Shown here piece after piece: positions 2,459 to 62,860 of a stretch of DNA of 64,000 nucleotides (its first letter is position 1; the number at the start of each line of letters is the position of its first letter). A program made the translations under genes and the position numbers. A model generated the notes under the pieces. It made no database searches. It was not told the origin of the DNA and saw only the letters and a list, made by a program, of their open reading frames with translations. Source of the stretch: Eledone cirrhosa (lineage: Eukaryota); assembly GCA_964016885.1 (NCBI GenBank), contig OZ024740.1, forward strand, positions 62,620,001 to 62,684,000, given 5' to 3'.

Positions 2459-4330
2459 TTATTCAAAATAAAATCAGTTTAAAACAATGTGAGCATTGTG
2501 AAATTTGAAATTTAAAAATATAATCGTCATAGTGCATAGAACTGTAATGATAGTTATTAACTACACATATTAGTTGAATAAATCAGGTAAAGTACATCTG
2601 GAGACGGACAAAATAGACAGAGATGTCTGCGGAGAATTGAACCATATAGCTCTTGTAGTGAGAGCGTTAAACCGACTTAAATAAAAATGTGTGGTACAAA
2701 CTCTTGTTATATCAGGATAACTTTATGCATGCTTAACTATTCCAAATGCTAGATGATATCAACAAAATTAGCAAGTAATGCAACCACTTCTGGACGTGTA
2801 ATAAATACATCATATCCCACATATTGATTTTTTTTTCTTTTTCTTTTTATTTATTCTATTTTATTTTATTTTTAAAATTCTTTTTATTTTTTATTTTTTA
2901 TTTTTATTTTACATAAAGAAAAACCCACACTGTATCCTCCTGTATCGTATTTAATGTTTCCTTAATGTGAGCCCTGTGTGGCTAATAAGGAAATTACTAT
3001 TAAGGGACAGGAGATAACTAATGAATAAAGAAGATAAGACTGATTCTAAACCTCTACGTTGTGATAAAAATGTCAGTGGAAGATATTTACACCGCCAGTT
3101 GATAGCCAAAAATGTTCGCAAAATACGGCCTTCTTATGAGGCATAAGATTGTTGCCATAAGTATTATTTACAATATTATCTGTGGGAAGGATTGTTCTGA
3201 CGATCATAACGAAAGCACAACAAAACCAGAATGTGTCCATATCTTTAAAAAAATAAAATAATGGATAAAACTTCCAGTGAAAAAATGTAATCCGGCGCAA
3301 ACTCAACATACTTCATACCATTTTATAGGATATAAAACAAAAGCCATGCACAGTTGCTCAACGGATATGAATATTTTATATAAGGTTTTTAAGAAAGACA
3401 GCATCTATGGTAAATTAATTTACAGCTATTGTATGTAGGCTGTAGATTCTCGTTTTTACCTGTTGTCTACTGGGGTATCTAACTACAGATCTTCCTCCAA
3501 AACTTCGAAACGTTGGAGTTTTCCAAGAAAGAACAAAACAAACTGACCCATACCCTACTAGTTCAATTGATTAAGAGTACAGTGAAGATTTTAAAACCAT
3601 TCCATAGATACCTTATTTGAGTTTTCATGTGGCCTCATTTCATGAATGCAAGTATATTTACAACTATACTCATTTATCCACATGAAGTAAGAAGGGACAC
3701 CAGTTCCCCATCATTCCGACCATATAAATATTTCGTCTCTTACACTGAAAGAAAGATTTGGTTCTTTCGCTATCTGCTACATTAAACGTGAAGTACTTAC
3801 TGACTACTGCCGTCAACTATGCTAAATGTATTTCACCTATAAAACCTCTAGAGATGGAAAGTATACTCTAACTTTTCTATAACAATCTGTGAGTCCTTCA
3901 CTGTCAGTATAGATCAAGGAAAAGAATAACTTGAAAAGTTTTGATTTTTTTTGACATCTGTTGATTTTAATGTGAAGTACTGACTACTGGGATTTTTACT
4001 CATTTTGAAAACGGAAAACATCAGGATAATGAAAGCTTCTAGAATCACTATATTCATATAGAAATGTAATAAAGTTTCAATCTTATGGTACATTTCACCA
4101 ATTTATTATTTAATATCAGAAGCATCTCATGTAATTCCCAAATTATCTGCTTTTAGTTATTCAGTTAACCGAATTGTGCAATTAAGTGGAATCAGCTACA
4201 AACACACGCTTAAACTCCCCACACATACACATATGGGAACAAGTGAGAACTACTTAATATATATGGGTATACAGTATAAAGTTTATTCACAACTAAACCG
4301 CACGTTTCGCTACTTCAGTTTTTCCTATCG

Positions 4331-4447
<117 letters not shown>

Positions 4448-4690
4448 ACATTTTCCCTTCTCCCTCAAATAGACTTTAACGCACAAACACACATGTATGT
4501 GTTAACCTAGGTAATAGTAATGAAGTACATAAACACACACACACACATGAAACCAACAAGACTGCTTTGCAACCATGTGTTTATTTTATTCTTCAAGTAT
4601 GTATATATGTATATATGAATGTATATATATATATATGTTTTTACGTGTATATAATTATGAAAATATATATTTATATATGTATGTATACAC

Positions 4691-4696
<6 letters not shown>

Positions 4697-4774
<78 letters not shown>
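4697..4774. repeat. (TA)n microsatellite
   Basis: Seen directly. Confidence 0.98.
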
Positions 4775-4782
<8 letters not shown>

Positions 4783-4979
4783 GGATACTATTTATGGTTA
4801 TGTATATACTAAAACTTTTTTATAGTTATGTATATTTTAAACCCTAAACAGTGAAGGTCAGTAATTTATTACTACCTTATTACCAGTAAGATAAATAGCT
4901 CAATGTAATAACATCAGTTGTTCTACAGAGCAGTTATATAGAATTCACAAGAATCAAAGCTATGTTCAAAGCATTTATT

Positions 4980-5025
4980 CACTTACAATTGTTTCATCTA
5001 ACCTAGGCTTGGAATCTTCGGACCA
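4980..5025 (-). ncRNA. Hammerhead ribozyme-like motif (variant core CCGAAGA), family A
   Basis: Reverse complement of the 6157-6203 motif, with a small change in stem II. Confidence 0.55.
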
Positions 5026-6156
5026 TTTTTCAATGTTTGTACACATAATTGACCTCCTTTCCAACGCAAGAGACATACAGATACATATATATATTGATGT
5101 ACAGTGGAGTGACATATATTATACTATATTATTTCTGTATAGCAATTCAAATTCAAAATCAAAATCAAAATTAAAATTAAAATTAAAACAAAATTAAAAC
5201 AAAATTAAAATACATTCGGCAGTTAACACAGATAATGCAAGAGGATAGTTTGTTAGTCAGATGTAGTAGTTAGTGTATGCGTTAGTTACACGTGGGGCAT
5301 TCAAGTGTGTCTCATTTATATATGATTATTGTGTGGCATGGTGTTACATGTAATACAAGCACTTTAAGCGGGTAAGTAAGAGTATTATGGTGGTTTTAGT
5401 GGTAAGGTATTTTTTGTATATAATAAAAAAGTATGTGTGCAGGAAAATAAAAATAAAAAGGAAAAGCAAAAGAAAGTTCTGGTTTTCGTATCCACCACCA
5501 TTTTCACATTCAGGAAAAGTAATAGATAGTTTTTACATCCATCACATAAGTAACGATGATTCCGTATTGGATGTTTGATGCATTAAATTAAATTATTTTA
5601 GCTTATTGCGGCTCGGTGTTATTTAATCACCGTTACTTATGTGATGGATGTAAAAACAATCTATTACTTTTCCTGAATGTGAAAATGGTGGTGGATACGA
5701 AAACCATAACTTTCTTTTGCTTCTCCTTTTTATTTTTATTTTCCTGCACACATACTATTTTATTATATACAAAAAATACCTTACCACTAAAACCACCATA
5801 ATACTCTTACTTACCCGCTTAAAGTGCTTGTATTACATGTAACACCATGCCACACAATAATCATATATAAATGAGACACACTTGCATGCCCCACGTGTAA
5901 CTAACGCATACACTAACTACTACATCTGACTAACAAACTATCCTCTTGCATTATCTGTGTTAACTGCCGAATGTATTTTAATTTTGTTTTAATTTTGTCT
6001 TAATTTTGATTTTGATTTTGATTTTGAATTTGAATTGCTATACAGAAATAATATAGTATAATATATGTCACTCCACTGTACATCAATATATATATATGTA
6101 TCTGTATGTCTCTTGCGTTGGAAAGGAGGTCAATTATGTGTACAAACATTGAAAAA

Positions 6157-6203
6157 TGGTCCGAAGATTCCAAGCCTAGGTTTGGATGAAACAATTGTAA
6201 GTG
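6157..6203 (+). ncRNA. Hammerhead ribozyme-like motif (variant core CCGAAGA), family A
   Basis: CCGAAGA-U-[UCCAAGCCUAGGUUUGGA hairpin]-U-GAAA-CAAUUG-UA-AGUG followed by AATAAA; stem I is weak. Confidence 0.6.
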
Positions 6204-6400
6204 AATAAATGCTTCGAACATAGCTTTGATTCTTGTGAATTCTATATATATATGTGTGTGTGTATATATGTACCAATATATATACATATGTATACAGTAT
6301 GAAGTGTGCTAGCAGGCAAAGTGTATGACAAAATTATATCTGTATAAATACATAGTGTGTAACCGAGAATGCCCTAACGTGTATAAATATATACACATAT

Positions 6401-7910
6401 CTAATATGTAGCCATGTAAGCATACCGAAAATACGAATTTCCCTGTAAATTGAAAATATGATAAACAACTTTAATCGTTTTTTCGGATCTTATTATTTTA
6501 CCTTCACATTCTTTTACATATTTTATTAGAGGGATCTTTTTAGTATACGGGGTTCTGATTTGCTGCTTATGGACTTTTATTCTTTGTCGGAGTGTCAGCT
6601 CCGTCTGTCCTACATAATGTTCGTGGCAACCTCGGCAGGTTATGACATAAATTAAGTTTTCCGAGTTGCACGAGAAGTTATTCTTAATTTTGAAGATGGA
6701 TCCGTCTTTGAAGTGAAATTCATGGCCATCCAATAGTCCACATTCCGCAATGAGGTTGGTTGTATCTTTTCACACGAGGTTCTGTAATTGTGGTTTGCAG
6801 CTCTGTCCTTGTCAGTATTTTTGTTAATGATTTCGGCTGTTGTTTACTCTTAATAATTGTTTCTACTTTTGGCACATGGCCAGCAATTACCCAGTGCATT
6901 ACTGGTACTTTATTTTATCGACCCCGTAAGGATGAAAGGCAAACTTAACCTCGGCGGAATTTGCACTCAGAATGGAAAGGGCCGTAACTCTATGCGTCAA
7001 AGCATGGCGTCCGACCCTCTAATAATAAAATATTTTTGTAAGTGGTTTTTCATTTTTTTGTCTTTGTAGTATTGATAGGTTTAGTCGTATGTATGTATAA
7101 ATGTTTTGGGAGTTGAATGTTGAGATGTATGGAATTACCTTTTTTCTTTTTTTGGTTTTGTTTTTTCGGAGAACTTGAATATTAATATGTTTTGCTTTTT
7201 GAATGCTATCGTTGATTATATTTAGAGGGTATTTTCTCTTGATGAGTATATCTTTCATCTCCTCTAGTATGTGCTTTTTTACTCTTGTGTTTGAAACTAT
7301 TGTGCAGATTCGTTGGGGCGTGTATGAGCTGGATGAGCAGATGTGAAGAAGAAGTACTGCCGGGAGTCGGTTGGTTTGAAAAAATGTCAGTTTCAAATTT
7401 TGTGTTTCTTTTTGTTATTAGTATGACTAAGAAAAGGAGATTTTTGTTACTAAATTCCATAGTGTTAGAGCTTATATCATTAATGAGGGCTTGAAAATTC
7501 CTTTGTTCATCAAGATTTTCCCTTCACAAAATAAAACAGTCATTTTCTTTTATATATGAGCTGAAGGAATTCCCATAAATTTGTGAAGCTTTTTCGTTGA
7601 TTTTTGTTCATGGTATTCCATGACTAAGTTGGCATATGTTGGCACTACTTTAGTACCTACGGCTGTTCCTGATTTCTGTCGGTAGGATGTTTCGTCGAAT
7701 ATAAAGTAATTGTTTTTAAGGATGAATTCAAGATTTTCTATGATGAAATTTCTGTTAATACAGTCTGGTAGCTCATGTGGGAATGCATTTAGCCAGTATT
7801 AGATAGCTTCGATTCCATAATCGTGAAGAATGTTACTATATAGGTTCACAGCATCAGTTGAAACCATGTAAATATTTTGGTCTACTATATTTGGTAGGCG
7901 GTTGAGAAAG
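6401..7910 (-). pseudogene. Penelope-like retroelement RT + GIY-YIG endonuclease remnant, interrupted by a SINE
   Basis: GIY-YIG motif NLIYVITCRGCHEHYVGQT..LRQRIKVH (6401-6733); RT motifs STDAVNLYSNI, YRQKSGTAVGTKVVPTYANL and FLVILI..TDIF; stops and frameshifts. Confidence 0.9.
6856..7020 (-). mobile_element. Main SINE copy inserted in the Penelope ORF
   Basis: Reverse complement of the SINE consensus. Confidence 0.9.
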
Positions 7911-10516: not shown

Positions 10517-11086
<570 letters not shown>

Positions 11087-11743: not shown

Positions 11744-11924
11744 TTGGCAGTATTGGTAGAGGGTCGGATGCCATGCTTTCCAGCATAGTTACGTCCCTTT
11801 ACGATCTGAGTTCAAATCCTGCCGAGGTTGACTTTGCCTTTCATCCTTACGGGGTAGATAAAATAAAGTACCAGTAATGCACTGGGTAATTGCTGGCCTT
11901 GTGCCTAAAGTAGAAACAATTATT
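11744..11924 (+). mobile_element. Main SINE copy
   Basis: Near full-length match to the consensus. Confidence 0.9.
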
Positions 11925-12106
11925 AGATCTAATGTTGCAACGATACAGTTAAATGTTGTCTGTGTATTTTAAAAAAGATTTGCTTATAATCTTTTCAAAT
12001 TTCATTACGCCAATGATTCAAGCTCAAATTGACATTATCTAAAAAATTGTACAAACAGCGGTGGATTAGCAGTAGTGAACAGATAAATCAGTCAATTTAT
12101 TAAGAT

Positions 12107-12762: not shown

Positions 12763-13955
12763 ACACTCATTGATCCATTTTGCACTAACTCTGCATCAAG
12801 CACCCTCACCTAAATATTAACCAATCAAGGATCCAATACAGCTATCTGTTGGATGAGTATTGTATAGTGCCAAAAACGAAACCAATCAGTTTAGCAGAAA
12901 GTTTCCAGACAAGAAACACGCATATTTTGCTATCCTCAAACACGTTTACACATGGCATGAAATATAACTAATCCGAGATGGCTAGGTTTCATCTTCTAAC
13001 TGGATATACGAAATCCATTATGTCTTGACAACAACATGAGGTAACATTATGTTATTCACAGACACACTTTGTACACTGTTCCATATCAGAATGTATTTCC
13101 TTCGTCACATTCACAAACAGTATTGAAAATATGTTCTTCGGCAAATAAAAATGTTTTGTTCATAATATTTCAACTAGCGATTGCTCTACTCCACGCACGA
13201 CCACCATAAATTAATGACCAGCTCAACACAAGTATTGGTAGAGCGTCAGACACCATGCTTTGCAGTATTGTTATGGTCCTTTGCATTCTAAGTTCAAATC
13301 CTGCCGAGGTTAACTTCGACTTTCATACTTACTAATTCGATAAAATAAAGTACCAGTAATGGACTGCCGTAATGGATTTGTGCCGAAAAATAGAAACACT
13401 ATTAATGTGCAATAAGAGCAAAATATAACGACATTGCTCAATTATTTTATCTAATGTTGTAATAACACAAGGAAATGTTGTTTGTGTATTTTTTTTTATA
13501 TTTGCTCATAGGCTTTTACAATTTCGCTCAGCCAACAACTATTAAAAAGTGAGTTGCTTAAGATAACAATTTAATCACAAATTGTTGTTATCTTTTAATA
13601 CACTCCAACAAGTCATCAAATTATGTACGATAAAAACAAATCTTATTAATTTGCTCAGGGAATATAAAGAAAATGTATATACACTGATAATTGCAATTGT
13701 ATGTAAATATTTTGTTTTTGTATTGTTTATTTTATGTTTTCTATTATGTATAATATATTGATTTAATATTGATTGTTTTTTTGTAGTTGTTTATATTAAA
13801 AGTCTGAAAATATTTTTATACATCTTACACTAATATTTATAAGATAATTTATAATAACAATTACATAATCTAATTACATTACAACGATAATTTATTATTA
13901 ATATATATCCTCTTTAACTAGAGTTATTACAAGCGTTGCCTTAAAAAAATATTAA

Positions 13956-14912
13956 ACTAGACATGAAAAATGCGCAAGCTCAAAAGTGCCACAGAATGTT
14001 ATAATAAACCTTCAAAAGTGTGGGACTAGAGTTGTTGCTAAAAAATATTGTAATCATTATATATCGTACATTCTGTGGCATCCTTTATAAAAATAGCTTA
14101 AACCAACGAAGCCTTTATTTTTACGCTATTTCACTTAGTTAATTCTTAGAGTGTAACATATAAAAATAAATACATCTATGTTTAATGTAATAACAGCTAT
14201 AAATAATTACGTAATATTATTATCATATACTCATAGTAACAAAATAATTGTGTTGAAAATGAATATGATGCTTATATGAACGATCAAATCTATAATGATA
14301 ATTTCTTAAATATACTAATAGTAAAATAATTTAGTTATCTATTGTTACATTTTCATAGAACTATAATATTAACAATCGCATTGCATTATCAAATTTTTAT
14401 CACTACAAACTTTCATATTGGAATTACCTTAAGCCACTTATTATTACTTCGCTTTCGTACTTTTACAGCTGTAGATATTGCGCTGTATCTTATATCTAAT
14501 ATCAATATCTCATGGTAATTTGCATGCAGTGTAAAATAGGTTTATTAATAACTTTAATATGAAATGTATTATACAGGGCTGCGGAGTCGGCCAAAAATTG
14601 ACTGGCTCCAACTCAGGATCCGATATTCCATTATTTCCTAAATTTCAGCTCCGCAGCTCTGTTATTATATTAATTAATTTATTTTATAGTTGTAAATCAT
14701 ATTTTTATATGTTACACTCTAAGAATTAACTAAGTGAAATAGCGTAAAAATAAAGGCTTCGTTGGTTTAACCTATTTTTATAAAGGATGCCACAGAATGT
14801 ACGATATATAATGATTACAATATTTTTTAGCAACAACTCTAGTCCCACACTTTTGAAGGTTTATTATAACATTCTGTGGCACTTTTGAGCTTGCGCATTT
14901 TTCATGTCTAGT
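13956..14912. repeat. Near-perfect 213-bp inverted repeat with ~530-bp spacer
   Basis: 13956-14168 vs 14700-14912, about 1 mismatch by eye; ACTAG/CTAGT ends. Confidence 0.9.
14574..14661. mobile_element. 88-bp hAT-like MITE
   Basis: TIR CAGGGCTGCGGAG / CTCCGCAGCTCTG; 8-bp TSD GTATTATA / TTATTATA. Confidence 0.7.
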
Positions 14913-14939
14913 ATATATATATATAACTTTGATAACTTT

Positions 14940-17863: not shown

Positions 17864-17870
17864 AATTTTT

Positions 17871-17894
17871 TTCGGGAGAAATCATCAGGAAGCC

Positions 17895-29030: not shown

Positions 29031-29226
29031 AATAATTGTTTCTACTTTTGGCACAAGACCAGCAATTACCCCAGTGCATTACTGGTACTTTATTTTACCG
29101 ACCCCGTAAGGATGAAAGGCAAAGTCAACCTCGGCGGGATTTGAACGCAGATTATAAAGGGCCGTAACTCTATGCTGCAAAGTATGGTGTCCAACTCTCT
29201 ACCGATACTGCCAATTCACTGCCCCG
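29031..29226 (-). mobile_element. Main SINE copy
   Basis: Full-length reverse complement of the consensus. Confidence 0.9.
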
Positions 29227-29227
29227 T

Positions 29228-31047
29228 ATAATAATAATAATAATAATAATAATGATTTCATTTATTGGCCACAAGGGCCGACATATAGGGGACAGTACAA
29301 AAGACTGGGACAGTAGGGTTTTATAGAAAAATCGAGTAAACAATATGAATAACAATAACAAAGTAACAATAAGATTACAACAAGAAAAAATTCCCCAATA
29401 GGGGGATGACCACCCAGGGTTCGCTCAGGTACCCCACCAATCCTGAACGACCCGACGCTTCGAGAGCACCCTGAAAGGGCACCCCCTCTCCTCCGCAAAT
29501 TTACCTACCTACAGCCGCATGACCAGAGTAGGCCCACTCACACGGGCCATTCTCGCTACATTCACCCACCTTTCATCAAATGTACTGGGGGCAGCACTTC
29601 TCTCTCCACCCTCACCTTCCTTTCCAAGTGAAACTTGAAAAAGTTGATGAGGGATTGGCCGAAGAGAAAAGTGTCTGTCTTCAGTCCTTTCAACCTCGTC
29701 CACCATACAACCTCTTTCGCTACTGCCACCAGACAGAGGAAAATTGCCTGCCCTTCCTGGCCAAAAGAAAGCGGCGGGTCGATCTTCACTATGGACTCGG
29801 CCGATAGCCGGATCCGTTCTACACGCGACAACAGCTGTTCAACATAACTCCACAAGTCAGTAAATGCACGGACACTGGACGAGTACGTGCAGAACGGTTT
29901 CGTCGCTCTGCGCGCATCTCGGGCAGGTCCGTCTGATAGCACTTCCGTGCCTGTAGAGTTTATCTCGAACCGGCAGTGCCCCCCGGTAGCACTGCCAAGC
30001 GAGGGATTTTTGGAAATTATCCATCGTCCCCGGTTCGAAAGTCCTCCGGTACAGACTGGTTAGTTCGACTTCGTTGACTCCCAGAGCCTCTCTGAGTGCG
30101 TCGTCACACTTGCCCACCACTAATTCTCTGTAGAACTCGAGAGTGGAAGTTCCACTGACCGCATTGCCCGCCTGGTAGAGGGCAGTGAGTTCCTGGCAAC
30201 ATTCCAGATGCCAGTCACCCAGTCTCGGTCTCTTCTTGATCCAGGACTGCAGCTCAGTCAAAGAAACGAGCTGCGGAAAGGCCCATATGACAAACGGCGA
30301 CCACACCTGTTCACCGTTTAGGCAGAATATCTGGAGATGCCGCAGCCTCAGCGCATGCCTGCGCATCATTAGCCACGGCATGCCCAGCCCTCCACGTAGA
30401 GGGTGCTGGCAGCAGATGGACCGCCTCACCAGCGGAACCTGACTCTTCCACAAGAATTTGAAGAGGAGCCGCTCCAAGATGGCGAGGCGCGAACGGGGCA
30501 AGGGACGACGGTCAGACGGTAGTGCGTTCGCCACCTCCGCCCGACCTTTCAGCGATAGCTTCATCCCAGCCCATTTCTGGGTGAGACTGGCTACCCTGCC
30601 CGTCACCTCGTCCCAATTCTTATCCACCTGGAGGTCTGGCCCGAACCAAACCCTTAGCAACTTTACCGGTCCGTCCGTCCAGCGCATAACGACGCTGTTG
30701 GATAGCATGGACTTGCCTCTCCAAGTGCCGAGTTGCAAGCCCACCGACTTTTCCGGGTTAAGTTTTGCTCCCGTCAACTTTTCATATTCCTCCAATAAGT
30801 TGCCGACCACCTCGATTTCTGAGTGTCCGACACCATCATGGTGATGTCGCTCGCATAAGCCGACACATCCTTTCCGCGTCCCGGTTCGAGCGGGATGCCC
30901 TGCAACAGCTCCAGCTTCCACAGTAAAGGCTCGAGAGTCAATACGTACAGAAGGGAGGAGAGAGGGCACCCTTGACGGACCGATCGGGAGACCTGAAACG
31001 GTTCCGAGAGATGGCCATTAATTTTCCGAGAGGTGGCCTTATGCACA
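29228..31047 (-). mobile_element. 5'-truncated Tx1/L1-clade LINE
   Basis: VRQGCPLSSLLY, SAYA.DIT, KLNPEKS, SLKGRAEVAN, GGLGMP and CCHC knuckle CPRC..ETVLHVLVQC; AATAAA plus (ATT)n tail; GC-rich. Confidence 0.9.
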
Positions 31048-31522: not shown

Positions 31523-31913
31523 ACATATTAAAGTGTACTAACCATCCAATAATAACTACAACACCCGGACATGCTCATGCTACAGCATGTTTCGACACAA
31601 AAAGTGAAGATTCCATAATTTAGAAGGCATGACAACAGGTGGACTACAATTTGGTCCGCACTTCTAAAAATATATCAGATAACTAAAAAAACGCACATGT
31701 TGTAGAGAGAAGAACCACGTGTTATATAGCCCACGTCGTGTGAATGGATCAAAAGACCGCTAAAAACAGCAGCTCAGAACCATTCAACTTAAGAAGCTCT
31801 ACTTACATATAGAAATGAATTAAGACAATATATCAAATTAAAAAACGGAGTTAAAGACTCCCCTATAATCCCCTATAATTTAATGAGCTAAAGGATTACA
31901 TTCCGGGCTCTTT

Positions 31914-32052
31914 ATAAATTAGTATATAGAAAAGGGTACACATAGAGGTATGTGTTTTAATCATAGACAATATGTTCATCACCCTGGTGGTTTTCTATCC
32001 CTATGATTAAACACATACCTCTCTGTGTACTTCTCTCTCTATACTGATTTAT
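31914..32052. repeat. Imperfect ~50-bp inverted repeat ending in TA repeat
   Basis: About 31914-31963 vs 32001-32052. Confidence 0.7.
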
Positions 32053-32291
32053 ATATGTATATATATATATATATATTACATATTATATCATTTATTTATG
32101 TTCATACATATATAATACATATATATCTATAAAATATCCATATGTATTATTTACGTATATATATATATATATATAAGATTATGACGGGTTCAATTTGAGG
32201 TAACCACATTAAGTAAGGTACTCAGAGGCCATTTCTATAGTATATATATATACGTGAAATCCTTGGTACATTTAGGTATATTTAAAAAAAG

Positions 32292-32431
32292 GAAAAGAAT
32301 GACTTCACTTGTAGTTCTAAACAATTTAATTTGATTTTATATTATTATGATTTTACAAACCAAATTGTAAAATCATAATATTATAAAATTAGATTAAATT
32401 GTTTAGAACTACAAGTGAAGTCATTCTTTTC
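32292..32431. repeat. ~66-bp-arm palindrome between (TA)n and (CA)n
   Basis: GAAAAGAATGACTTCACTTGTAGTTCTAAACAATTT / AAATTGTTTAGAACTACAAGTGAAGTCATTCTTTTC. Confidence 0.85.
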
Positions 32432-32436
32432 GTTTT

Positions 32437-32535
<99 letters not shown>

Positions 32536-32596: not shown

Positions 32597-32639
32597 CTAT
32601 ATACTTTATAAACAACAATCAAAGTTTAGAACATTTAAT

Positions 32640-32685
32640 CACTTACGATCGTTTCATCCTAGCACAAGGCCGAGTCATCGGAGTA
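32640..32685 (-). ncRNA. Hammerhead ribozyme-like motif (variant core CCGAUGA)
   Basis: Reverse complement reads UACU-CCGAUGA-CUCGGCCUUGUGCUAGGAU-GAAA-CGAUCG-UA-AGUG; downstream sequence resembles family A. Confidence 0.7.
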
Positions 32686-35064
32686 TATAAGAAAGGTTGA
32701 AACACAAATATAATATAAGAAGTTTGTCACAAGAAGGACACATAATATGGGAAGTAAGCATAAGTATCAACATTTATATCAGAAAAGATAGCAAAGGCAG
32801 AAGAAGCAAATGAAAAATCTGAGCATATAAATTCAATAAAATAAAATTAGGACCAGCTAAAAGCGTTAAAAATTCTAAAAACATGCTGCAATAGAGAAGT
32901 TAAGTATAGTGCAAGACATATATCATAATTATTAAAGAAACATATATCATAAGCATTAGAAAAGTTTATAAAGTTAATAAGAGCAGGTGTACAGTTCAAA
33001 TATAGATTTAAAAATATAAAAAATACATCTCCAAAATATATTTTTAATAATGGATATAAAAAGTTTGACTGCGTCATTTAGTCATAAAGATAAACTATTA
33101 TTTTTCAAACCTGAAGCTTTATCACGTTCTGCTTTCCAGTATAGTTACGTCCCTTTACGGTCTGAGTTCAAGTCCCGTCGAGGTTAATTTTACCTTTCAT
33201 CCTTACAGGGTCGATAAAATAAAGCACAAGTAATGTATTGGATAATTGCTGGCTTTTTGCCAAAAGTAGAAACAATTATTTCACATGATATGCCTATGAA
33301 AAAACCTACCAATATTCAAACTAATATGATTGTTTGTATCAGTGGATTAAATAATGATATGCACCCCTATACAGTTCACAAATAATATATCTCACATACA
33401 CGCGCACCATCTATTACTATCCCATTTCCGCAAATGCTTGTTGTAGTGTAGCATGAAGCAATTCCTTTAGCATTGCCGCTAACACTACCGTTTTTTCTCT
33501 CGTACATACACGCATACAACTTTTCCGACTTGATCAACATTTTACATGAAGTACGCACCAGCTTTGATATAATAGATCTAAAACTTTAGGTATATACAAA
33601 GTTATCAGCAAAAACTACTTATTAGCATTTGCTTACATGTGCTTTCCTTAAGAACATTCTTCAGCTCTTTCTCGAAAATTACGAAGCACACTTAAAAGTG
33701 CAAGCACACTTAAAGTAAATGATCTTACACATTTATACCCGTACACATAATCGTACACATAATCAGGTAGAACTGTAGATATTCGGCACAAGTTCACAGT
33801 CGATGGAATCAACCTCATGGAAATAGCTGATAGTTATTTTATCAGTTATTGAAAGATGAAAGACACACGAAATCGCGGTTGGATTTAAACTAAGAAACAA
33901 ATTGGAACGAAACTAATCCATGTGATAGATATAGTCTGACGCTTCTCTAACATTTATGAGATAAATATTGGCTTCTAACATCAGTCCAAGACCACTAATT
34001 TTGTGTGTGGAGTGTAATCAATTAAATTTACGCTATTATTTGATGGGCACTTATATTATAAAGCCCTAGAGGAAAGAAGGAAGCTAAAAACGATTCGTAC
34101 TGGATTTGAATTCAGAACTTAAAGGGTAGTATCAAACTACAGGAAGGTATTTAAGCCTGCGGCATACGAATTATACTATCTACTGTTTGTCTAAAATAAA
34201 TATGGATTTCTAATATTGGCACAAAACCACAATGTTCGGATGTGAGCTTAGTGCATTTTATCGATCTTACAAACATAGATGAAACCAGCTTGCACCACAT
34301 AGAGCGTTTGGGAAGAAAGTGCAATCGACTTCAAGGATAAGAATGTAATACATTTTTAATGCTACCGCAAGCCTATATTACATTGTGATACTACTGTCAT
34401 TTTCCAACTCTATTAATTCTTCCTACACGTCTTTGTAAACAAATACTTGCACTGAAAACGATTATTATACCAAATAATCCATCCGATGCAATAATATCTT
34501 AGAATTACTGTACCATATCGTAATGTAATGATTGTGAATTGCCTCGAAAGGTAATTATATTCTCACCAACCAATTCATCTTTCAAGTTATCCAATCGTTA
34601 ACATTAGTTAAGCTCATGTCTGGAAATGCCAATTAAAGAACGAAGGCGGTGATTGACACTTTACTGTCGACAAATATATTTTGCTTTCATTACAACCTAC
34701 GTATTAAGATGATTACATTTGTTGGATATGTGGTCAAGGGGAACGCTATCACATTTTGTAGCATTCAGAAAAGCGATAGTGAAGTATTTTGGAAAAGAAC
34801 TTTATAGTTATATAAAACGTTTCGACAAAACGAACAATACAGTAGTCCATTGACAGCTATTGCACTCTAGTATGGTAAAAAAGATTCACATATTCATCAA
34901 ATATTTGGGATCACTATGACGATAGGGTTGACGGATAAATTGAGCAAAGAATTCGATTTTGTTTTTTTCACAACTACATTACACAATTGAGACTGTCATT
35001 GATACTTTTGGGTATTAAATGCAGGATACAGTTGACAGAAAATTTGATCAAAGAATTAAATTTT

Positions 35065-35268
35065 AAAATTAGAAATAGAAGCCTTCGCCGTACTTTTGAC
35101 TAAAGAAACTTTAGCCTGATAGTGGGTTTAGAACCCTCAGAGAAACAGAAAAAGATGAGTATTACGTCAATACTCATCTTTTTCTATTTCTCTGAGGGTT
35201 CTAAACCCCATTATCAGGCTAAAGTTTCTTTAGTCAAAAGTATAGCGAATGCTTCTGTTTCTAATTTT
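35065..35268. repeat. ~100-bp-arm palindrome with 5-nt loop
   Basis: 35065-35163 vs 35169-35268. Confidence 0.92.
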
Positions 35269-35399
35269 CAAACTCGTTCGCTGTTTCAAAATATTCTTAC
35301 TTGTAATTAAATTTTAGTTTGTTCACAGTTTTGATGACTAACTACAACATGCCATTGAATCTCTCATTGATATTGTTTGTTATTAAATTCTGTCGGTGC

Positions 35400-36495: not shown

Positions 36496-36855
36496 TCGCA
36501 CACACACACATATATATATAACGGTGTATTGGCAGAGTGGTTAAGACGTCGGGTAGAATGCTTTACGATATTCGTCCCACCTCATTGCGTGCTCTGAGTT
36601 CAAATCCCACCGTGGTTAACTTTGCCTTTCCTCCTTTCGGAGTCGATAAAGAAAGTACAGTGAGGTACTCTGGTCGATTCTTCCTCTATAGAAAAAATCA
36701 TCTGTGTTCAGACCTGGAGAGGGTTGGGCTCCGCCAGGTTTAAAAGTGCCCTGGACACGCCGTATGAAGGTACCTCTACGACTCCACAAGGAGTTATAGG
36801 ATCTTTATCCTTTATCTATGCATAATCTGCTTCCCATTGGCCTTCATTATTTCAA

Positions 36856-37243
36856 AGGGCGTTGAATTGGCAGTATCGGTAGAGGGTCGGACGCCATGCT
36901 TTCCAGCATAGTTACGTCCCTTTACGATCCGAGTTCAAATCTCGCCGAGGTTGACTTTGCCTTTCATCCTTACGGGGTCGATAAAATAAAGTACCAATAA
37001 TGTACTGGGTAATTGCTGGCCTTGTGCCTAAAGTAGAAACAATTATTTCAAAGGGCGGTGGATTGGCAGTATCGGTAGAGGGTCTGACGCCATGCTTTGC
37101 AACAAAGAGTTACGTCCCTTTATGTTCTGAGTTTAAATCCCGCCGAGGTTAACTTTGCCTTTCATCCTTATGGGGTCGATAAAATAAAGTACCAGTAATG
37201 TACTGGATAATTGCTGGCCTTGTGTCAAAAGTAGAAACAATTA
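36856..37243 (+). mobile_element. Tandem dimer of the main SINE
   Basis: Two full copies separated and flanked by ATTATTTCAAA. Confidence 0.92.
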
Positions 37244-37819
37244 TTTCAAATTTTTATTTTTGTTTTATTTGTTTTTGCTGTTTCTTTTTCCTCTTTTTAA
37301 TCAATTTATTTTATTACTTATCTCACTAGTTATTTTTCATTACCAACTGTAAGGATTACTCGATACTTCCCCTAGTTTGTCATGGCTTACTAGCTCTACA
37401 TGGACATTAAAATTGATTAAATAGTTAATCAAATAAATAAATATAAAGTAGACGTACCTTGTAAATCAATCAGCAATGGAACAATCCTTTGATCAATTTA
37501 TCCGTCAACTCTATCGAGATATTGATCTCGAATATTTGATGAATATGTGAATCTTTTGTACCATACCAGAGTGCAATAGCTGTCAATGGACTATTGTATT
37601 GTTTGTTTTGTCGAAATGTTTTATATAATTATAAATTTCTTTTCCAAAATACTTCGCTGAATGCTACAACATGTGATATCGTTTCACTTGGCCACAATCA
37701 ATCAAATTTAATTTTCTTAATACGTTGTTGCAGTAAAAGCAAAGAAGAAAAAATACTACTTGTCGCCAATAAAGTGGCATCACTACCACCATTTTTAAAT
37801 TGGTACTGTACAAAATGAA

Positions 37820-44316: not shown

Positions 44317-44501
44317 GGGCGGTGGATTGGCAGTACCGGTAGAAAGTCGGACGCCTGGCTTTCTAGCATAGTTACGTCCCTTTACAGTATTAGTTCAAAT
44401 CCCGCCGAGGTTAACTTTGCCTTTCATCCTTACGGGGTCGATAAAATAAAGTACCAGTAATGCACTGCGTAATTGCTGGCCTTGTGCCAAAAGTAGAAAC
44501 A
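44317..44501 (+). mobile_element. Full-length main SINE with 15-bp TSD
   Basis: TSD ATATTAGGA(T/C)ATTTT at 44301-44315 and 44502-44516. Confidence 0.93.
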
Positions 44502-45255
44502 ATATTAGGACATTTTGCTTCGTTGAAATATGAACATGAGCGCATTTCATATTTAATGTACACTTTGAGGGCTGCGATATTTAAATAAACTACGAAGACT
44601 CAGTTTAACAGTCTAAAACAGAACGATGCTATGATTGGTTAAGTTTATGGTGCAATTTAGATACCAATTTGAAGACCCACCCTATTTCTTAAGAATGGGA
44701 ACACGTCAACATCACTCATTATTTTCCTATGTGCTAGGTATACCTTGAAAAAAAAACAAAAAAACTTTAGATTTTTAGTTTTACAGCAAAAAAAAAAAAT
44801 GAAAAATAAAAAAAGAGACCGGTGAGAAGATAACAACATTTCAGCGATTTCATAGCGTGATGCGTTTTGAATTCAACTAAAAAGAAAGAATTATAATTTG
44901 ATATTTTTTTCTCCCGCAGATAAAATAAGAACTAATTTCAACAAAGAAACAGACAAAAAAAAACAACAACTAACAAACAAAAAACTATCCATTATTACTA
45001 ATGTGTTTGAAGTAATGCCCCAACGAAACATTTTCTAATGAATCATAATATAATCATATAATATCATCATATAGTATAATAATCTTCTGGTGAATTTTAA
45101 ATATAAAAAAATGTGAGAAGGAAACTAGTTATATAAAGTCCTTTCTCAAATGGCAATTAGCAGGAAGAGATTATACATTTTCCTTTTAATTAGACAAAAG
45201 CAATTACTAATGGTAAAACAAGTGAAACTAATTAGGTCTGTCCAAATGCCTTGTT

Positions 45256-45357
<102 letters not shown>

Positions 45358-45553
45358 GGATACTATTTATGGTTATGTATATATTAAAACTTTTTATAGT
45401 TATGTATATTTTAAACCCTAAACAGTGAAGGTCAGTAATTTATTACTACCTTATTACCAGTAAGATAAATAGCTCAATGTAATAACATCAGTTGTTCTAC
45501 AGAGCAGTTATATAGAATTCACAAGAATCAAAGCTATATTCAAAGCATTTATT

Positions 45554-45600
45554 CACTTACAATTGTTTCATCCAAACCTAGGCTTGGAATCTTCGGACCA
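45554..45600 (-). ncRNA. Family A HHR-like motif
   Basis: Reverse complement of the 6157-6203 motif. Confidence 0.55.
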
Positions 45601-46518
45601 TTTTTCAATGTTTGTACACATAATTGAACTCCTTTCCAACGCAAGAGACATACAGATACATATATATATATATATATTGATGTACGGTGGAGTGACATAT
45701 ATTATACTATACTATTTTTGTACAGCAATTCAAATTCAAAATCAAAATCAAAATCAAAATTAAAATCAAAATCAAAATTAATATACATTCGGCAGATAAC
45801 ACAGATAATGCAAGAGGATAGTTTGATAGTGAGATCTAGTAGGTAGTGTATGCGTTAGTTACATATGGAGCATGCAAGTGTGTCTCATTTCTATACGATT
45901 ATTGTGTGGCATGGTGTTACATGTAATGCAAGCACTTTAAGCAGGTAAGCAAGAGTATTATGGTGGTTGTAGTGGCAAGGTATTTTATGTATAGAACAAA
46001 AAAGTATGTGTGCTGAAAAATAAAAATAAAGAGAAGAAGCAAAAGAAAGGTGGTGGATACGAAAACCATAACTTTCTTTTGCTTCTTCTCTTTATTTTTA
46101 TTTTTCAGCACACATACTTTTTTGTTCTATACATAAAATACCTTACCACTACAACCACCATAATACTCTTGCTTACCCGCTTAAAGTGCTTGCATTACAT
46201 GTAACACCCTGCCACACAATAATCGTATAGAAATGAGACACACTTGCATGCTCCATATATAACTAACGCATACTATACCTACTAGATCTGACTATCAAAC
46301 TATCCTCTTGCATTATCTGTGTTATCTGCCGAATGTATTTTAATTTTGATTTTTATTTTAATTTTGATTTTGATTTTGATTTTAAATTTGAATTGCTGTA
46401 CAAAAATAGTATAGTATAATATATGTCACTCCACTGTACATCAATATATATATATATATGTATCTGTATGTCTCTTGCGTTGGAAAGGAGGTCAATTATA
46501 TGTACAAACACTGAAAAA

Positions 46519-46565
46519 TGCTCCGAAGATTCCAAGCCTAGGTTTGGATGAAACAATTGTAAGTG
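46519..46565 (+). ncRNA. Family A HHR-like motif
   Basis: UGCU-CCGAAGA-...-GAAA-CAAUUG-UA-AGUG; stem I can pair here with two G-U pairs. Confidence 0.65.
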
Positions 46566-46599
46566 AATAAATGCTTTGAACATAACTTTGATTCTTGTG

Positions 46600-46683
<84 letters not shown>

Positions 46684-46690
<7 letters not shown>

Positions 46691-46856
46691 TTTAATATAG
46701 AAATGGCTTCTACAGGACTAGAACTGTTTCATTCGGGAAAAATCATCAGGAAGCCGACCTCCGGAATGAAACAGTTCTAGTCCTGTAGAAGCCATTTCTA
46801 TATTGCTGTGTATTCAGTACCTTACTATGTTTACCTCCGATTGAACCCGGAATAAA
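46684..46856. mobile_element. Family B head-to-head PLE-like mini-element
   Basis: Inverted arms about 46694-46734 / 46764-46804; right-side tail; lies between (TA)n and (CA)n. Confidence 0.8.
46705..46755 (-). ncRNA. Type I hammerhead ribozyme, family B
   Basis: Reverse complement reads GGCUUC-CUGAUGA-UUUUUCCCGAAU-GAAA-CAG-UUCUAGUC-CUG-UA-GAAGCC. Confidence 0.85.
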
Positions 46857-58980: not shown

Positions 58981-59535
58981 AGAATACTAATAATTGTTTC
59001 TACTTTTGGCAGTATCGGGAGAGCGTCAGACACCAAGCTTTGCAGCATACACTTATGGCCCTTTACGGTTTAAGTTCAAATCCCGCTGAGTTTAACTTTG
59101 CCTTTCATCCTTACGGGGTCGATAAAATATAGTACCAGTAATACACTGGGGTAATCACTGGCCTTGTGCCAAAAGTAGTAACATTATTATTATTATTGGC
59201 AGATTAGCAGTATGGATAGAGCGTTGGACACTATGCTTTACGGCATAGAGTTATGGCCGTTTACGTTCTGAGTTCAAAATTCTATGCTGCAGAGCATGAT
59301 GTCTGACGTTCTACCGATACTGCCACCCCACCGACCTCAGAATACTAACAATTGTTTCTACATTTGGCACAAGGCCAGCAATTATCTCAGTGCATTACTG
59401 GTATTTTATTTTATCGACCCCGTAAGGATGAAAGACAAAGTTAACCTCGGCGGGATTTGAACTTAAACCGTAAAGGGCCATAACTGTATGCTGCAAAGCA
59501 TGGCGTCCGACCCTCTACCGATACTGCCAATCCAA
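58981..59535. mobile_element. Cluster of four main-SINE pieces in both orientations
   Basis: +59007-59187, +59197-59278, -59281-59333, -59350-59535. Confidence 0.85.
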
Positions 59536-60440: not shown

Positions 60441-61832
60441 TGTAGCTAGAGTGACTCGCTGATCTCCGAGCTACGAACTCTATCGAGTAACCCTACTCCA
60501 AAAACTCTTCAGGGGAACCTTATTACAGCCGTGTGTATTCGTCATTTATTTCACTGGCAAATGTGAACTGTATCTGTAATTCAAAGGGCCAGCATTATCA
60601 AACTGTGATGCTGAATCTCCTTGAGAACTATGTCAAGTGTTCACGAGGTGGCCATTCTGTTGTTAGAAAAACTGGAACACCTATCGCCGAAACCGATGGA
60701 TATCCATTCCATTCTACTACTACCTAATTAGCAAGAAGGCAAAATTATGCAAAAGACTATTGAGTAGATTGAAAAATAGCCTCTATCAATTATAGAAGCT
60801 CCATCTCAGCTTTCCAAGAACGAGGAGCAAATTAATCAGAATATTTTTAATCACGACACAGTTAGCCCGAAGGAAGAACAATTTAATAAGATCCTATTAG
60901 CATCAACGTTAACAGCAACATCATTAATGATTGATGTAGATGGGAAGTGATTAATACAACACACACACACACATGACGCATTTCTATTTATACTGCAGAT
61001 ATATAACAGTTAAAACTTAATTTCCTGCCAGTTAACTGTTAAAATAAGCAGTTATTCTTGGACAGATGTTCCAGATTCTGTATTAGCACATTAATCTAGG
61101 AAACAAAATAATCTGATAAGGTCTATCATTTTCATTAAGAACCATAGCATGAAGTTCCAGTACTCGTCGTATTTAAGGTTTCCTGGATTCATCATCAGCA
61201 CCCCGGAACAAATATTGGTGTTAAACCAGGTGACGTATTAAATCTACTTTAAATGAAACATTTCAGACGAGTGGACTATTAACATGCATAGAAATGGAGA
61301 GGGGGAGCAGTAGACTCTACACCCCAGTCTGAGTGGTGTTTTATTTGTGCCCCCACGGACAAAATGGCAAAGGCATTGCCGCGGAGCATGGCCAGCATAG
61401 AAATCCCAGTGAAGAAGTTGGTTACTGGAAGCCGAGCGCGTCGTTTTCATAAATCCTATTTAGACTGTTTGACTGAATGAAAGTATATATATTCATCCGT
61501 TGTTAGGCCTTTTCTTTCTTAGTGTCGGCTATCTTTGAGTGTACGTGTGTCTCCTATAGGGTAGCTAGAAATACGTAAAAATATTATTATCGTGCAGAAC
61601 TTAACTTAACGTCTTGAACTTTGCACCTCACGAGACCGTCTCGCAAATGAAACATTTTGTCTTCTATGGTGCTGAAAAATATCTTCTTTTCTATCAAGTA
61701 ACTGAAAACGCCATGTTTATGCAATCAAATTTAATTCAATTCAATTTAATTCAATTTAATTTAAATTAATCTGTATATATTTTATTAAGTTTTGAGGCAG
61801 TTTTTGAAAGTATTGTGTCAGTATAACGATTT

Positions 61833-62546
61833 TAATGATTTTAATTGATTGGTAGACCAAACAATGCGTATAAAAATTAAACGTAATGTTTAATTCATAA
61901 CCTTTTCAGTCTAGGCGCTCATTAGTGAATATAAGATCTGTCTTGTTTTTTCACACTAGGAACCTTTTAGTGTTGATTAACAGTCAAATTTTGAAAAACA
62001 TAAGCTTTTGTTGCAGTCATCTTAGAAGCTGCGAGAAGTTGAAGGAACTGATTATAAGTATTTTCTTTTTCCTCGCCTAATTGTGAGATTTAGAATGTGA
62101 AAGGTAGTGACCATATATATAACAGAAAAGCTTTTAGCGTTGATTAACGGTTGAACGAACTTTGGTTGAAATTACATCCTTAGTAGATTTCTTCCTTCCA
62201 AAGTTAGTGACGAAGCTGGCAGTGTCAACGCTTGTTAGCTAATACCAAGCGCTTAAAGTCAAGGCACATCCAATGAAGAAATAGAGTTCACATATATAAG
62301 GATATTTTCTTTTTTTTCTTTTCTATCCTTTTTCTCGGAAATTGGAAGATAGAGACTATATATATTTATATACACACACATGACCATATACGCTATGCTT
62401 TTTCAAGCTTCGACCGTTAACCAACGTTAAAAGTTCCAGGTAAAAAAAAAAAGATCATGTATTCACTGATGAGTCTTTGAGACTGAAACATTTACAATTA
62501 GTTTTTATACGCATTGTCTGGGCTTCCAATAAAGTAAAATTATTAA
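61833..62546. repeat. Old head-to-head inverted pair with HHR-like motif
   Basis: About 61833-62002 vs 62394-62546; CTGATGA...GAAAC at 62466-62489. Confidence 0.6.
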
Positions 62547-62643
62547 TTTAATTCAGTTCGTATTTCGGTTAAACCCTAGATATATGCTTAGAAGAAATAC
62601 GAAATATATTAAAGTGAATTAAATTTTATTATATAAATAGGCT

Positions 62644-62860
62644 GGGCGGTGGATTGGCAGTATCGGTAGAGGGCCGGACGCCATTATTTCCAGCATAGAG
62701 TTACGGCCCTTTATGATCTGAGTTCAAATCCTGCCGAGGTTAACTCTGCCTTTCATCCTTACGGGGTCGATAAAATAAAGTACCAGTCGCGCACTGGGGT
62801 CGATTTAATCGACTTTTCCCTCCCCCAAAATTGCTGACCTTGTGCCTATATAAGAAACCA
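62644..62860 (+). mobile_element. Full-length SINE (long-tail variant) with TSD
   Basis: TSD TTATATAAATAGG at 62629-62641 and 62861-62873. Confidence 0.92.

What the first reader, a model, noticed from the sequence alone, without database searches (positions are those of the whole stretch)
4775..6246. Ribozyme-bearing, (TA)n-associated palindromic mini-retroelement (fold-back PLE derivative)
Seen: a 1.47-kb non-coding element between TA tracts, made of two ~625-bp inverted arms. Read outward from the centre, each arm ends in a hammerhead-like motif, AATAAA and ~40 nt. Only the left arm continues into a 160-bp tail. Similar architecture (head-to-head arms, HHR near the outer end, often a one-sided tail and microsatellite flanks) recurs with unrelated sequences at 10614-10914, 46684-46856 and 61833-62546. 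Known: PLE pseudo-LTRs carry minimal type I HHRs and can be inverted. Inference: these are multi-family, non-autonomous, retrozyme-like elements mobilised by PLE RT/GIY-YIG, which build palindromes at insertion and prefer TA microsatellites. I do not know of a description of this in cephalopods.
Basis: partly seen in the sequence, partly recalled or inferred. Interest (0 to 1): 0.85.

Follow-up and report, generated by a model that had tools for sequence, protein, structure and literature searches.

The report
Two-armed Hydra-type Penelope retrotransposon insertion
The 1.5-kb palindrome is two cut-short tail ends of a 4.2-kb Penelope-like jumping gene lying head to head, not a separate mini-element; its copies nearly always give the 165-base tail to only one arm and often carry an extra CT repeat at the other end, which likely records both ends of the cut DNA starting reverse transcription.

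Summary
The palindrome, TA flanks, one-sided tail and hammerhead-like motifs are real. They are not a non-autonomous retrozyme-like family. Both arms are 5'-truncated 3' ends of a 4.2-kb element that encodes RT plus a C-terminal GIY-YIG and has the Hydra-clade motifs; arms at other loci run into that ORF. Hydra elements, (TA)n targets, inverted pLTRs and one-sided tails are published, including Hydra-1_Obim from Octopus. What this adds is counts. In 62 loci taken in coordinate order, 41 of 41 classifiable head-to-head pairs join one tailed and one tail-less end; one tail-less/tail-less pair turned up among 150 such ends. In 9 of 41 pairs the arms share no sequence, which rules out simple fold-back. 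(CT)n follows 21 of 51 tail-less ends and 0 of 51 tailed ends, and is absent from one empty site. The best reading is twin priming at the two RT start sites that bound the tail, with stuttering at initiation. The hammerhead has a U4C core; cleavage is untested. The 10614-10914 palindrome is only a passenger in a larger repeat. This scan noted similar two-armed Penelope insertions on other DNA before.

The parts
4598..4774 (.). left (TA)n-rich target tract
   Evidence: TRF array 4598-4779; sequence
4775..4939 (-). 165-nt tail (T): the 5' leader of the next tandem unit, between the two fixed 3' ends; its outer end is the inferred first RT start site
   Evidence: In full-length copies T sits between B4068 and B1, just before the ORF; 47 tailed ends listed, 43 followed by TATA/ATAT
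4940..5628 (-). left arm: 3' UTR/pLTR B3397-4068, starting about 900 nt behind the ORF stop
   Evidence: 95% identical to L033, 79-95% to the 3' ends of 10 long copies
4980..5025 (-). type I hammerhead-like motif, U4C core; this copy has a G.G in stem I and a broken stem II
5625..5628 (.). 4-nt microhomology at the head-to-head junction
5625..6243 (+). right arm: B3464-4068, tail-less end (inferred second RT start site)
6157..6203 (+). type I hammerhead-like motif: U4C core, 7-bp stem II, palindromic loop III, predicted cut after 6199; G.G in stem I
6204..6209 (+). AATAAA (function untested)
6244..6296 (.). right TA/TG-rich tract
45350..46603 (.). second, independent head-to-head insertion of the same family (tailed left arm from B3548, tail-less right arm from B3526)
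46684..46856 (.). short head-to-head insertion of another hammerhead-bearing PLE family ('C') in the same TA tract
   Evidence: 12149 exact 24-mer matches; same anatomy; GIY-YIG end upstream in L214
32615..32702 (-). 3' end of a related family ('D') with the same U4C core and a different palindromic loop III
   Evidence: GIY-YIG at L264 and L273

Best explanation
The element is one insertion made of two 5'-truncated 3' ends of a Hydra-clade Penelope-like retrotransposon joined head to head in a TA tract, likely built when both ends of the cut DNA primed reverse transcription, one at each border of the 165-nt tail. Shown: the parent unit is T (165 nt) + B (4068 nt) with an RT-GIY-YIG ORF of about 820 codons and about 1.6 kb of 3' UTR that ends in the hammerhead region; both arms read as minus-strand copies running inward from the target; one ends at T165, the other at B4068. 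Inferred: the GIY-YIG cuts both strands of (TA)n; an RT dimer holds the tail and uses each start site once; on a single RNA the trailing RT would have to displace the leading cDNA; both cDNAs stop at random and are joined by microhomology or short fill-ins; at the tail-less site the RT often stutters on the template's last UCU and adds (AG)n before elongating. The hammerhead is a passenger of the pLTR here: copies end 44 or 209 nt beyond its predicted cut, so these templates were not cut there (or were re-ligated).
For: Arms continue into the ORF at other loci; Hydra motifs RW(R/K), DKT, CxCX5C, CxxC/CxH around E and N (against PMC8557442). 48 of 62 loci hold head-to-head pairs; 41 of 41 classifiable pairs are tailed/tail-less; 1 tail-less/tail-less pair among 150 tail-less ends listed on C1+C2, where my rough expectation under free choice is about 16. 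Tailed arm reaches further 5' in 16, tail-less in 23 of 39 simple pairs; 9 of 41 pairs have non-overlapping arms (two more, L097 and L112, were dropped because their junction inserts continue into B). Junctions: 22 overlaps, 2 blunt, 17 inserts of 41. Arms of a locus are closer (median 3.3%) than to other loci (6.8%), 27 pairs. (CT)n: 21/51 versus 0/51, Fisher p 7e-8; genome-wide 264 CT-ended versus 239 directly TA-ended; empty repeat copies at L118 hold (AT)4 and (AT)9 and no CT. In vitro a Poseidon PLE cuts and extends both strands, starts at two sites that bound the tail, is predicted dimeric and does not need hammerhead cleavage (PMC11167929).
Against: No biochemistry on this family. Exceptions exist: L286 is tail-less at both ends and family C has one tailed/tailed pair in 14 (L218, by eye). 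8 of 49 pairs could not be classified and 14 of 62 loci were scored single-armed. PMC11167929 saw no difference in start site between strands and reports start sites not homologous to the cut DNA, whereas both ends here sit at TA-like template sequence. Arm-arm distance equals the distance to the nearest other locus (3.3% vs 3.2%; closer in only 10 of 27), so one RNA versus two RNAs of one source is not resolved. Only two usable empty sites (L118, L138). None of 22 long copies has an intact ORF (longest 641 codons from the first ATG). Clade call rests on motifs and by-eye comparison, not a tree.
Confidence: 0.72

Rival explanations
1. A separate non-autonomous, retrozyme-like mini-element of fixed make-up, mobilised in trans by PLE proteins.
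For: Most copies are short and non-coding: only 8 of 115 arm 5' ends lie upstream of B2500. 5' ends are somewhat dense at B3497-3564 (11 of 115), which could mark a short transcript. Retrozymes are argued to derive from pLTRs (bioRxiv 10.64898/2026.07.22.740005).
Against: 5' ends form a continuum from B766 to inside the tail and the centre differs at every locus; arms are up to 95% identical to, and colinear with, ORF-bearing copies; no head-to-tail arrays of short hammerhead units in 62 loci.
Confidence: 0.07
2. The inverted arm is made by fold-back or self-priming: one cDNA (or an antisense RNA, as proposed in PMC3846280) hairpins and copies itself, and the endonuclease trims one end at the TA-like tail border.
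For: Arms share non-majority variants (184 shared against 268 arm-private); junction microhomologies; W1 itself fits (tailed arm is longer at both ends); published model.
Against: A copied-back arm cannot hold sequence absent from its template: 23 of 39 pairs have the tail-less arm reaching further 5', 9 of 41 share no sequence. (CT)n between target and tail-less end points to priming there, not trimming.
Confidence: 0.1
3. Both ends are primed, but on two RNA molecules (for example held together through the palindromic hammerhead loop III) or on a tandem or circular template, not on one linear RNA with strand displacement.
For: Arms longer than one unit exist (L153, L158, L132), which needs a tandem, circular or jumped template; loop III is a perfect palindrome in both U4C families; PMC4209133 proposes circular templates.
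Against: Two templates each offer both start sites, so tailed/tailed and tail-less/tail-less pairs would be expected unless the dimer is asymmetric; only 1 of 115 arm 5' ends lies within 4 nt of the predicted cut.
Confidence: 0.09
4. Assembly or chimeric-read artefact, or a DNA-transposon MITE with terminal inverted repeats.
For: This locus's own junction was not bridged in four other runs.
Against: Arms differ at 1.3% of sites, ends are asymmetric and base-precise across loci; opposite-strand joints of family members occur in independent Illumina reads (X9); no TSD beyond simple repeats at W2 and only an 11-nt AT-rich shared word at W1; link to an RT ORF.
Confidence: 0.02

Closest known systems
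Hydra clade of C-terminal EN+ Penelope-like elements, incl. Hydra-1_Obim of Octopus bimaculoides (Craig et al. 2021, PMC8557442)
   Same: Single RT-GIY-YIG ORF, RW(R/K), DKT, CxCX5C linker, CxxC and CxH around E/N, (TA)n targets, hammerhead near the 3' end.
   Different: Unit is 4.2 kb (Hydra are generally under 3 kb; Hydra-1_Obim 2507 bp with no pLTR seen); 1.6-kb 3' UTR; clear pLTRs; hammerhead core is U4C where Hydra-1_Obim's listed core is canonical; a different protein by eye.
General EN+ PLE insertion anatomy: pLTR, inverted 5'-truncated copy, optional tail (PMC8557442, PMC3846280)
   Same: Head-to-head inverted copy, partial tandems, tail on one end, microhomology joints.
   Different: Tail is 165 nt, not 30-40; the one-tail pattern is near-strict here (41 of 41) where the papers say 'often' or 'optionally'; non-overlapping arms contradict the self-priming model.
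PAc (Poseidon, Anolis) in vitro mechanism (Frangieh et al. 2024, PMC11167929)
   Same: Two RT start sites bounding the tail, AT-rich targets, both strands extended, hammerhead cleavage not needed.
   Different: Different clade; the paper does not pair start sites with ends or mention repeat addition in the parts read; hammerhead there overlaps the ORF start, here it lies about 250 nt before it.
Minimal type I hammerheads of PLEs (Cervera and de la Pena 2014, PMC4209133)
   Same: Long stem II, short stem I, palindromic loop III; that paper also notes opposite-strand pairs 100-700 bp apart in Schistosoma.
   Different: U4C core; no G10.1-C11.1 pair at the base of stem II.
Animal non-LTR retrozymes (as described in bioRxiv 10.64898/2026.07.22.740005)
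   Same: Non-coding, type I hammerhead, PLE-related.
   Different: Retrozymes are head-to-tail arrays of a fixed short unit; these are head-to-head variable truncations of a coding element.
L1 twin priming (recalled, not read here)
   Same: Both target ends prime cDNA and the two cDNAs are joined by microhomology.
   Different: In L1 the second site is variable and segments do not overlap; here both sites are fixed and arms usually overlap.

Membership tests
EN+ Penelope-like element | One ORF with RT and GIY-YIG endonuclease linked to this 3' end | tested here: met
   Pfam GIY-YIG weak (E 0.012, below cut-off); 41 homologues up to E 1e-119. ORF broken in 22 of 22 long copies.
EN+ Penelope-like element | Partial tandems (pLTRs), inverted 5'-truncated copy, tail at one end | tested here: met
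EN+ Penelope-like element | Hammerhead motif in the pLTR | tested here: met
   Motif and stems in 65 parsed arms: U4C core 64 of 65, stem I pairs 64, 55, 63, 65 of 65, stem II of 7 bp or more in 49 of 65 (loop III was partly fixed by how loci were chosen). No Rfam match.
EN+ Penelope-like element | Hammerhead self-cleavage | not testable with these tools
   No RNA run listed
Hydra clade | C-terminal EN, RWK-type motif, DKG changed to DKT | tested here: met
   RWR and DKT in P0043; criteria
Hydra clade | CxCX5C linker; CxxC and CxH flanking conserved E and N; no CCHH | tested here: met
   P0042 and alignment A1; absence of CCHH judged by eye
Hydra clade | (TA)n insertion preference | tested here: met
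   43 of 47 tailed ends and 25 of 51 tail-less ends run straight into TATA/ATAT, 21 of 51 into CT first
Hydra clade | Generally short, under 3 kb (a tendency, not a strict criterion) | tested here: not met
   Unit 4233 nt because of a 1.6-kb 3' UTR
Hydra clade | Groups with Hydra in an RT tree | not tested
   Only by-eye comparison with the paper's Hydra proteins
Naiad/Chlamys | N-terminal GIY-YIG, DKA motif | tested here: not met
   EN is C-terminal, motif is DKT
Neptune/Nematis | CX2-5CxxC linker and CCHH in the EN | tested here: not met
   Linker is CxCX5C
Non-LTR retrozyme | Head-to-tail arrays of a short fixed non-coding unit with a hammerhead in each | tested here: not met
   None in 62 loci; tandems seen are whole 4.2-kb units
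Non-LTR retrozyme | Circular RNA | not testable with these tools
   No RNA run listed
MITE / TIR DNA transposon | Symmetric terminal inverted repeats, fixed length, target duplication | tested here: not met
   Ends asymmetric, length variable, no clear TSD

The most novel reading that the evidence does not exclude
Hydra-type PLE RT works as an asymmetric dimer that clamps both borders of the tail on one RNA, primes each cut DNA end from a different fixed site, and stutters at initiation like its sister enzyme telomerase, writing (CT)n, (CA)n and (TA)n tracts. These tracts then serve as targets for further PLEs, so PLE families would be a major self-feeding source of this genome's compound microsatellites, and the genomic one-tail rule would answer how PLE inverted pLTRs arise.
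Probability: 0.4. Interest if true: 0.68.

Novelty: new member of a known kind. Interest (0 to 1): 0.4.

Why it matters
As a sequence it is one of more than a thousand dead arms of a known clade. Its value is as a natural experiment. How PLEs build inverted pLTRs and one-sided tails is named as open in PMC8557442. The near-strict pairing of one tailed with one tail-less end, and pairs whose arms share no sequence, separate twin priming from self-priming and give a prediction that the published in vitro PLE system can test. The end-specific (CT)n suggests repeat addition by a telomerase-related RT. The U4C hammerhead kept in two diverged families is a small natural variant worth an assay.

Tried and rejected
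Rfam scan: no hammerhead hit, only microsatellite-driven miRNA noise. Pfam on four ORF pieces: no RT family; weak GIY-YIG; one sub-cut-off hit on a low-complexity stretch, disregarded. Naiad and Neptune were my first guesses; rejected on domain order and motifs. Single-strand MFE folds did not give the hammerhead fold, and a co-fold paired the stem II palindrome, not loop III, so folding gives no support for an active ribozyme. Tail fold z -1.66, 9 of 200 shuffles as good: weak. Pile-up of arm 5' ends at the predicted cut: 1 of 115; 8-12 nt upstream of the core: 0 of 115 (one search list). One arm (L094) ends at the predicted cut site: 1 case, not used. No RNA holder listed. This locus's junction was not bridged in X1, X3, X10, X11: inconclusive. 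High contig depth over the tail suggested a tail-only mini family; the tail 28-mer count (1155) matches the hammerhead-side count and 30 loci showed no such family, so dropped; the many RAD reads ending near 4863 and 4945 stay unexplained. Empty-site search over 41 pairs gave two usable cases (L118, L138) and one false one (L086); flanks are mostly ends of other repeats. 10614-10914 as a self-mobile mini-element: rejected, 15 of 15 whole copies among 18 loci share both flanks. 61832-62546: no family found with one 18-mer, not followed further. No tree was built.

Full report
Observation. The element is as described: inverted arms of about 620 nt, TA tracts on both sides, a hammerhead-like motif and AATAAA near each outer end and a tail on the left arm only. 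A second copy with a different centre lies at 45350-46603. A 28-mer from the hammerhead side has 1107 exact matches in the 3.0-Gb genome and its reversed control none; a tail 28-mer has 1155. Exact matches are lower bounds.

Parent element. Thirty best-matching loci showed two fixed 3' ends and variable 5' ends. Eight ran upstream in shared sequence, and three of them reached the end of a GIY-YIG frame. Longer stretches gave RT and GIY-YIG pieces and a near full copy, L033. A search with its 5' part scored 40 of 1861 candidates, all 91-100% identical. In 20 such loci plus five others the order is pLTR - tail - ORF - 3' UTR - optional tail, often with an inverted truncated copy at the head. The unit is tail T (165 nt) plus body B (4068 nt); the ORF runs from about B47 to B2501. 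None of 22 long copies is intact. The window's arms are B3397-4068 plus T, and B3464-4068: pure 3' UTR, 79-95% identical to ten long copies. The window holds no match to the ORF.

Clade. The proteins show RWR, DKT, GLYRDD, a CxCX5C linker, a C-terminal GIY-YIG and CxxC/CxH around E and N, the features that Craig et al. give for Hydra (PMC8557442; passages read). Their supplement lists Hydra-1_Obim from Octopus bimaculoides, 2507 bp, (TA)n, with a hammerhead (supplement searches). By eye its protein has the same motifs but is another family. Named homologues are two octopod proteins. No tree was made.

One tail per insertion. I took the first 60 distinct outside loci from the coordinate-ordered list plus the two window copies. 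48 of 62 hold head-to-head pairs (49 pairs). 41 could be classified and all 41 join a tailed with a tail-less end (one, L131, with a shortened tail); 8 had a broken outer end; 14 loci were scored single, at least two of which (L093, L139) hide a partner arm. Among 150 tail-less ends listed for C1 and C2, one pair is tail-less at both ends (coordinates retyped by hand); with the patterns' recall of 28 of 51 ends, free choice would give roughly 16 pairs (my estimate). In family C, 13 of 14 two-armed loci follow the rule and one is tailed at both ends (by eye; 28 distinct loci, 8 of them copies of one larger repeat, 6 single).

How the arms arise. Both arms are minus-strand copies running inward from the target, so both target ends look like primers. 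Fold-back needs the copied arm to lie within its template. The tailed arm reaches further 5' in 16 and the tail-less arm in 23 of 39 simple pairs, and in 9 of 41 the arms share nothing. This argues against the self-priming model of Arkhipova et al. (PMC3846280; passages) for most pairs. Junctions show overlaps (22), blunt joins (2) or inserts (17). Arms of one locus are closer than average copies (3.3% versus 6.8%, 27 pairs) but not closer than the nearest other locus (3.2%), so same source, but one or two RNAs is open. Frangieh et al. (PMC11167929; parts 1-2 of 4 read) found cutting and extension of both strands, two start sites bounding the tail, a predicted dimer and no need for hammerhead cleavage; they saw no strand difference in start site. 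Using each site once per insertion is my inference.

Added repeats. (CT)n directly follows 21 of 51 tail-less ends and 0 of 51 tailed ends; genome-wide 264 ends carry three or more extra CT units against 239 that run into TA. The template there ends in UCU before AUAUA. At L118 the insertion sits in a local repeat whose empty copies have (AT)4 and (AT)9 and no CT, while the filled site has about 17 CT-like units and about 44 TA units on the tail-less side. At L138 the empty copy has (TA)8 and no CT was added. Families C and D often end in CA, CT or GT runs that echo their last bases (not counted). RT stutter at initiation is the simplest reading; later slippage may lengthen the runs. One informative empty site is thin evidence.

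Hammerhead. 64 of 65 parsed arms have C at position 4; stem I pairs are kept in 55-65 of 65; stem II has 7 or more pairs in 49 of 65. Family D keeps U4C (11 of 12) with a G-U to A-U change in stem I and another perfect palindrome in loop III; outside the ORF its likeness to this family is largely confined to the hammerhead and tail. U4C lowers activity in vitro but supports viroid infectivity (PMC3088659; passages). PLE minimal hammerheads cut weakly (PMC4209133; parts 1-2 of 4 read), and that paper notes opposite-strand pairs. Both motifs in this copy carry a G.G in stem I. Cleavage is untested; MFE folds do not show the fold.

Other sites. 46684-46856 belongs to family C with a GIY-YIG end upstream at L214; family D has GIY-YIG at L264 and L273. 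10614-10914 has fixed spacing because it rides in a larger repeat. 61832-62546 is old and unplaced.

Artefact check. Opposite-strand joints of family members appear in independent raw reads; this locus's junction was not bridged.

Literature. I found no paper that counts the one-tail rule, proposes twin priming for PLEs or reports stutter: searches (listings only unless named above). Subscription papers such as the early Penelope structure papers are not in the library, and bioRxiv supplements were closed, so this is weak evidence of absence. Of the retrozyme preprint I read part 1 of 5. L1 twin priming is recalled. Earlier scan notes on other genomes reached similar anatomy.

Verdict. The counts give a sharper, testable model of PLE integration. 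Interest 0.4.

Noticed in passing
window 10614-10914 and flanks (about 9890 to beyond 11100): The palindrome, its (TC)n(TA)n flanks and a family C remnant about 700 nt upstream travel together in a larger repeat; 434 exact 24-mer matches, many copies 99-100% identical. What moves this larger repeat is unknown.
   Followed up: partly
window 46684-46856; loci L195-L224: Family C has 12149 exact 24-mer matches; most sampled copies keep under 100 nt upstream of the hammerhead. It is the best candidate here for a largely non-autonomous short form.
   Followed up: partly
window 32615-32702; loci L255-L284: Family D shares the U4C core and tail motifs; GIY-YIG 58-70% identical to this family's.
   Followed up: partly
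loci L085-L144, flanks: Beyond the TA runs the flanks are often ends of other repeat families, so elements pile up in each other's TA tracts; W2 and the family C copy share one tract at 46603-46699.
   Followed up: partly
L033:1340-8073: A palindrome with 2.4-kb arms at 99.1% identity, one arm a whole unit; such long near-perfect inverted repeats persist in this genome.
   Followed up: partly
L094:3354: One arm ends at the predicted hammerhead cut site and is followed by unrelated sequence: possibly priming on a cleaved RNA, 1 case.
   Followed up: partly
window 4863 and 4943-4945 (run X9): Many RAD reads end here with diverse loose ends; may be another family sharing part of the tail.
   Followed up: partly
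window 13949-14920: 99% identical 220-nt terminal inverted repeats around a 530-nt spacer; looks like a MITE, unrelated to the finding.
   Followed up: no
window 31913-32053, 32286-32437, 35061-35272, 59006-59530: Further short palindromes, several in TA tracts; may be stumps of other PLE families.
   Followed up: no
window 17870-17888 (-): A tiny family C-like core fragment between TA tracts, next to an (AG)n run.
   Followed up: no
window 6852-7021, 11787-11925, 29037-29236, 33140-33280, 36846-37250, 44370-44503, 59006-59534, 62632-62800: A dispersed repeat of about 170-200 nt with many copies in both orientations, SINE-like.
   Followed up: no
L005 (reverse strand, about 2630-3050): GIY-YIG end of yet another Hydra-like family next to the insertion.
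   Followed up: no
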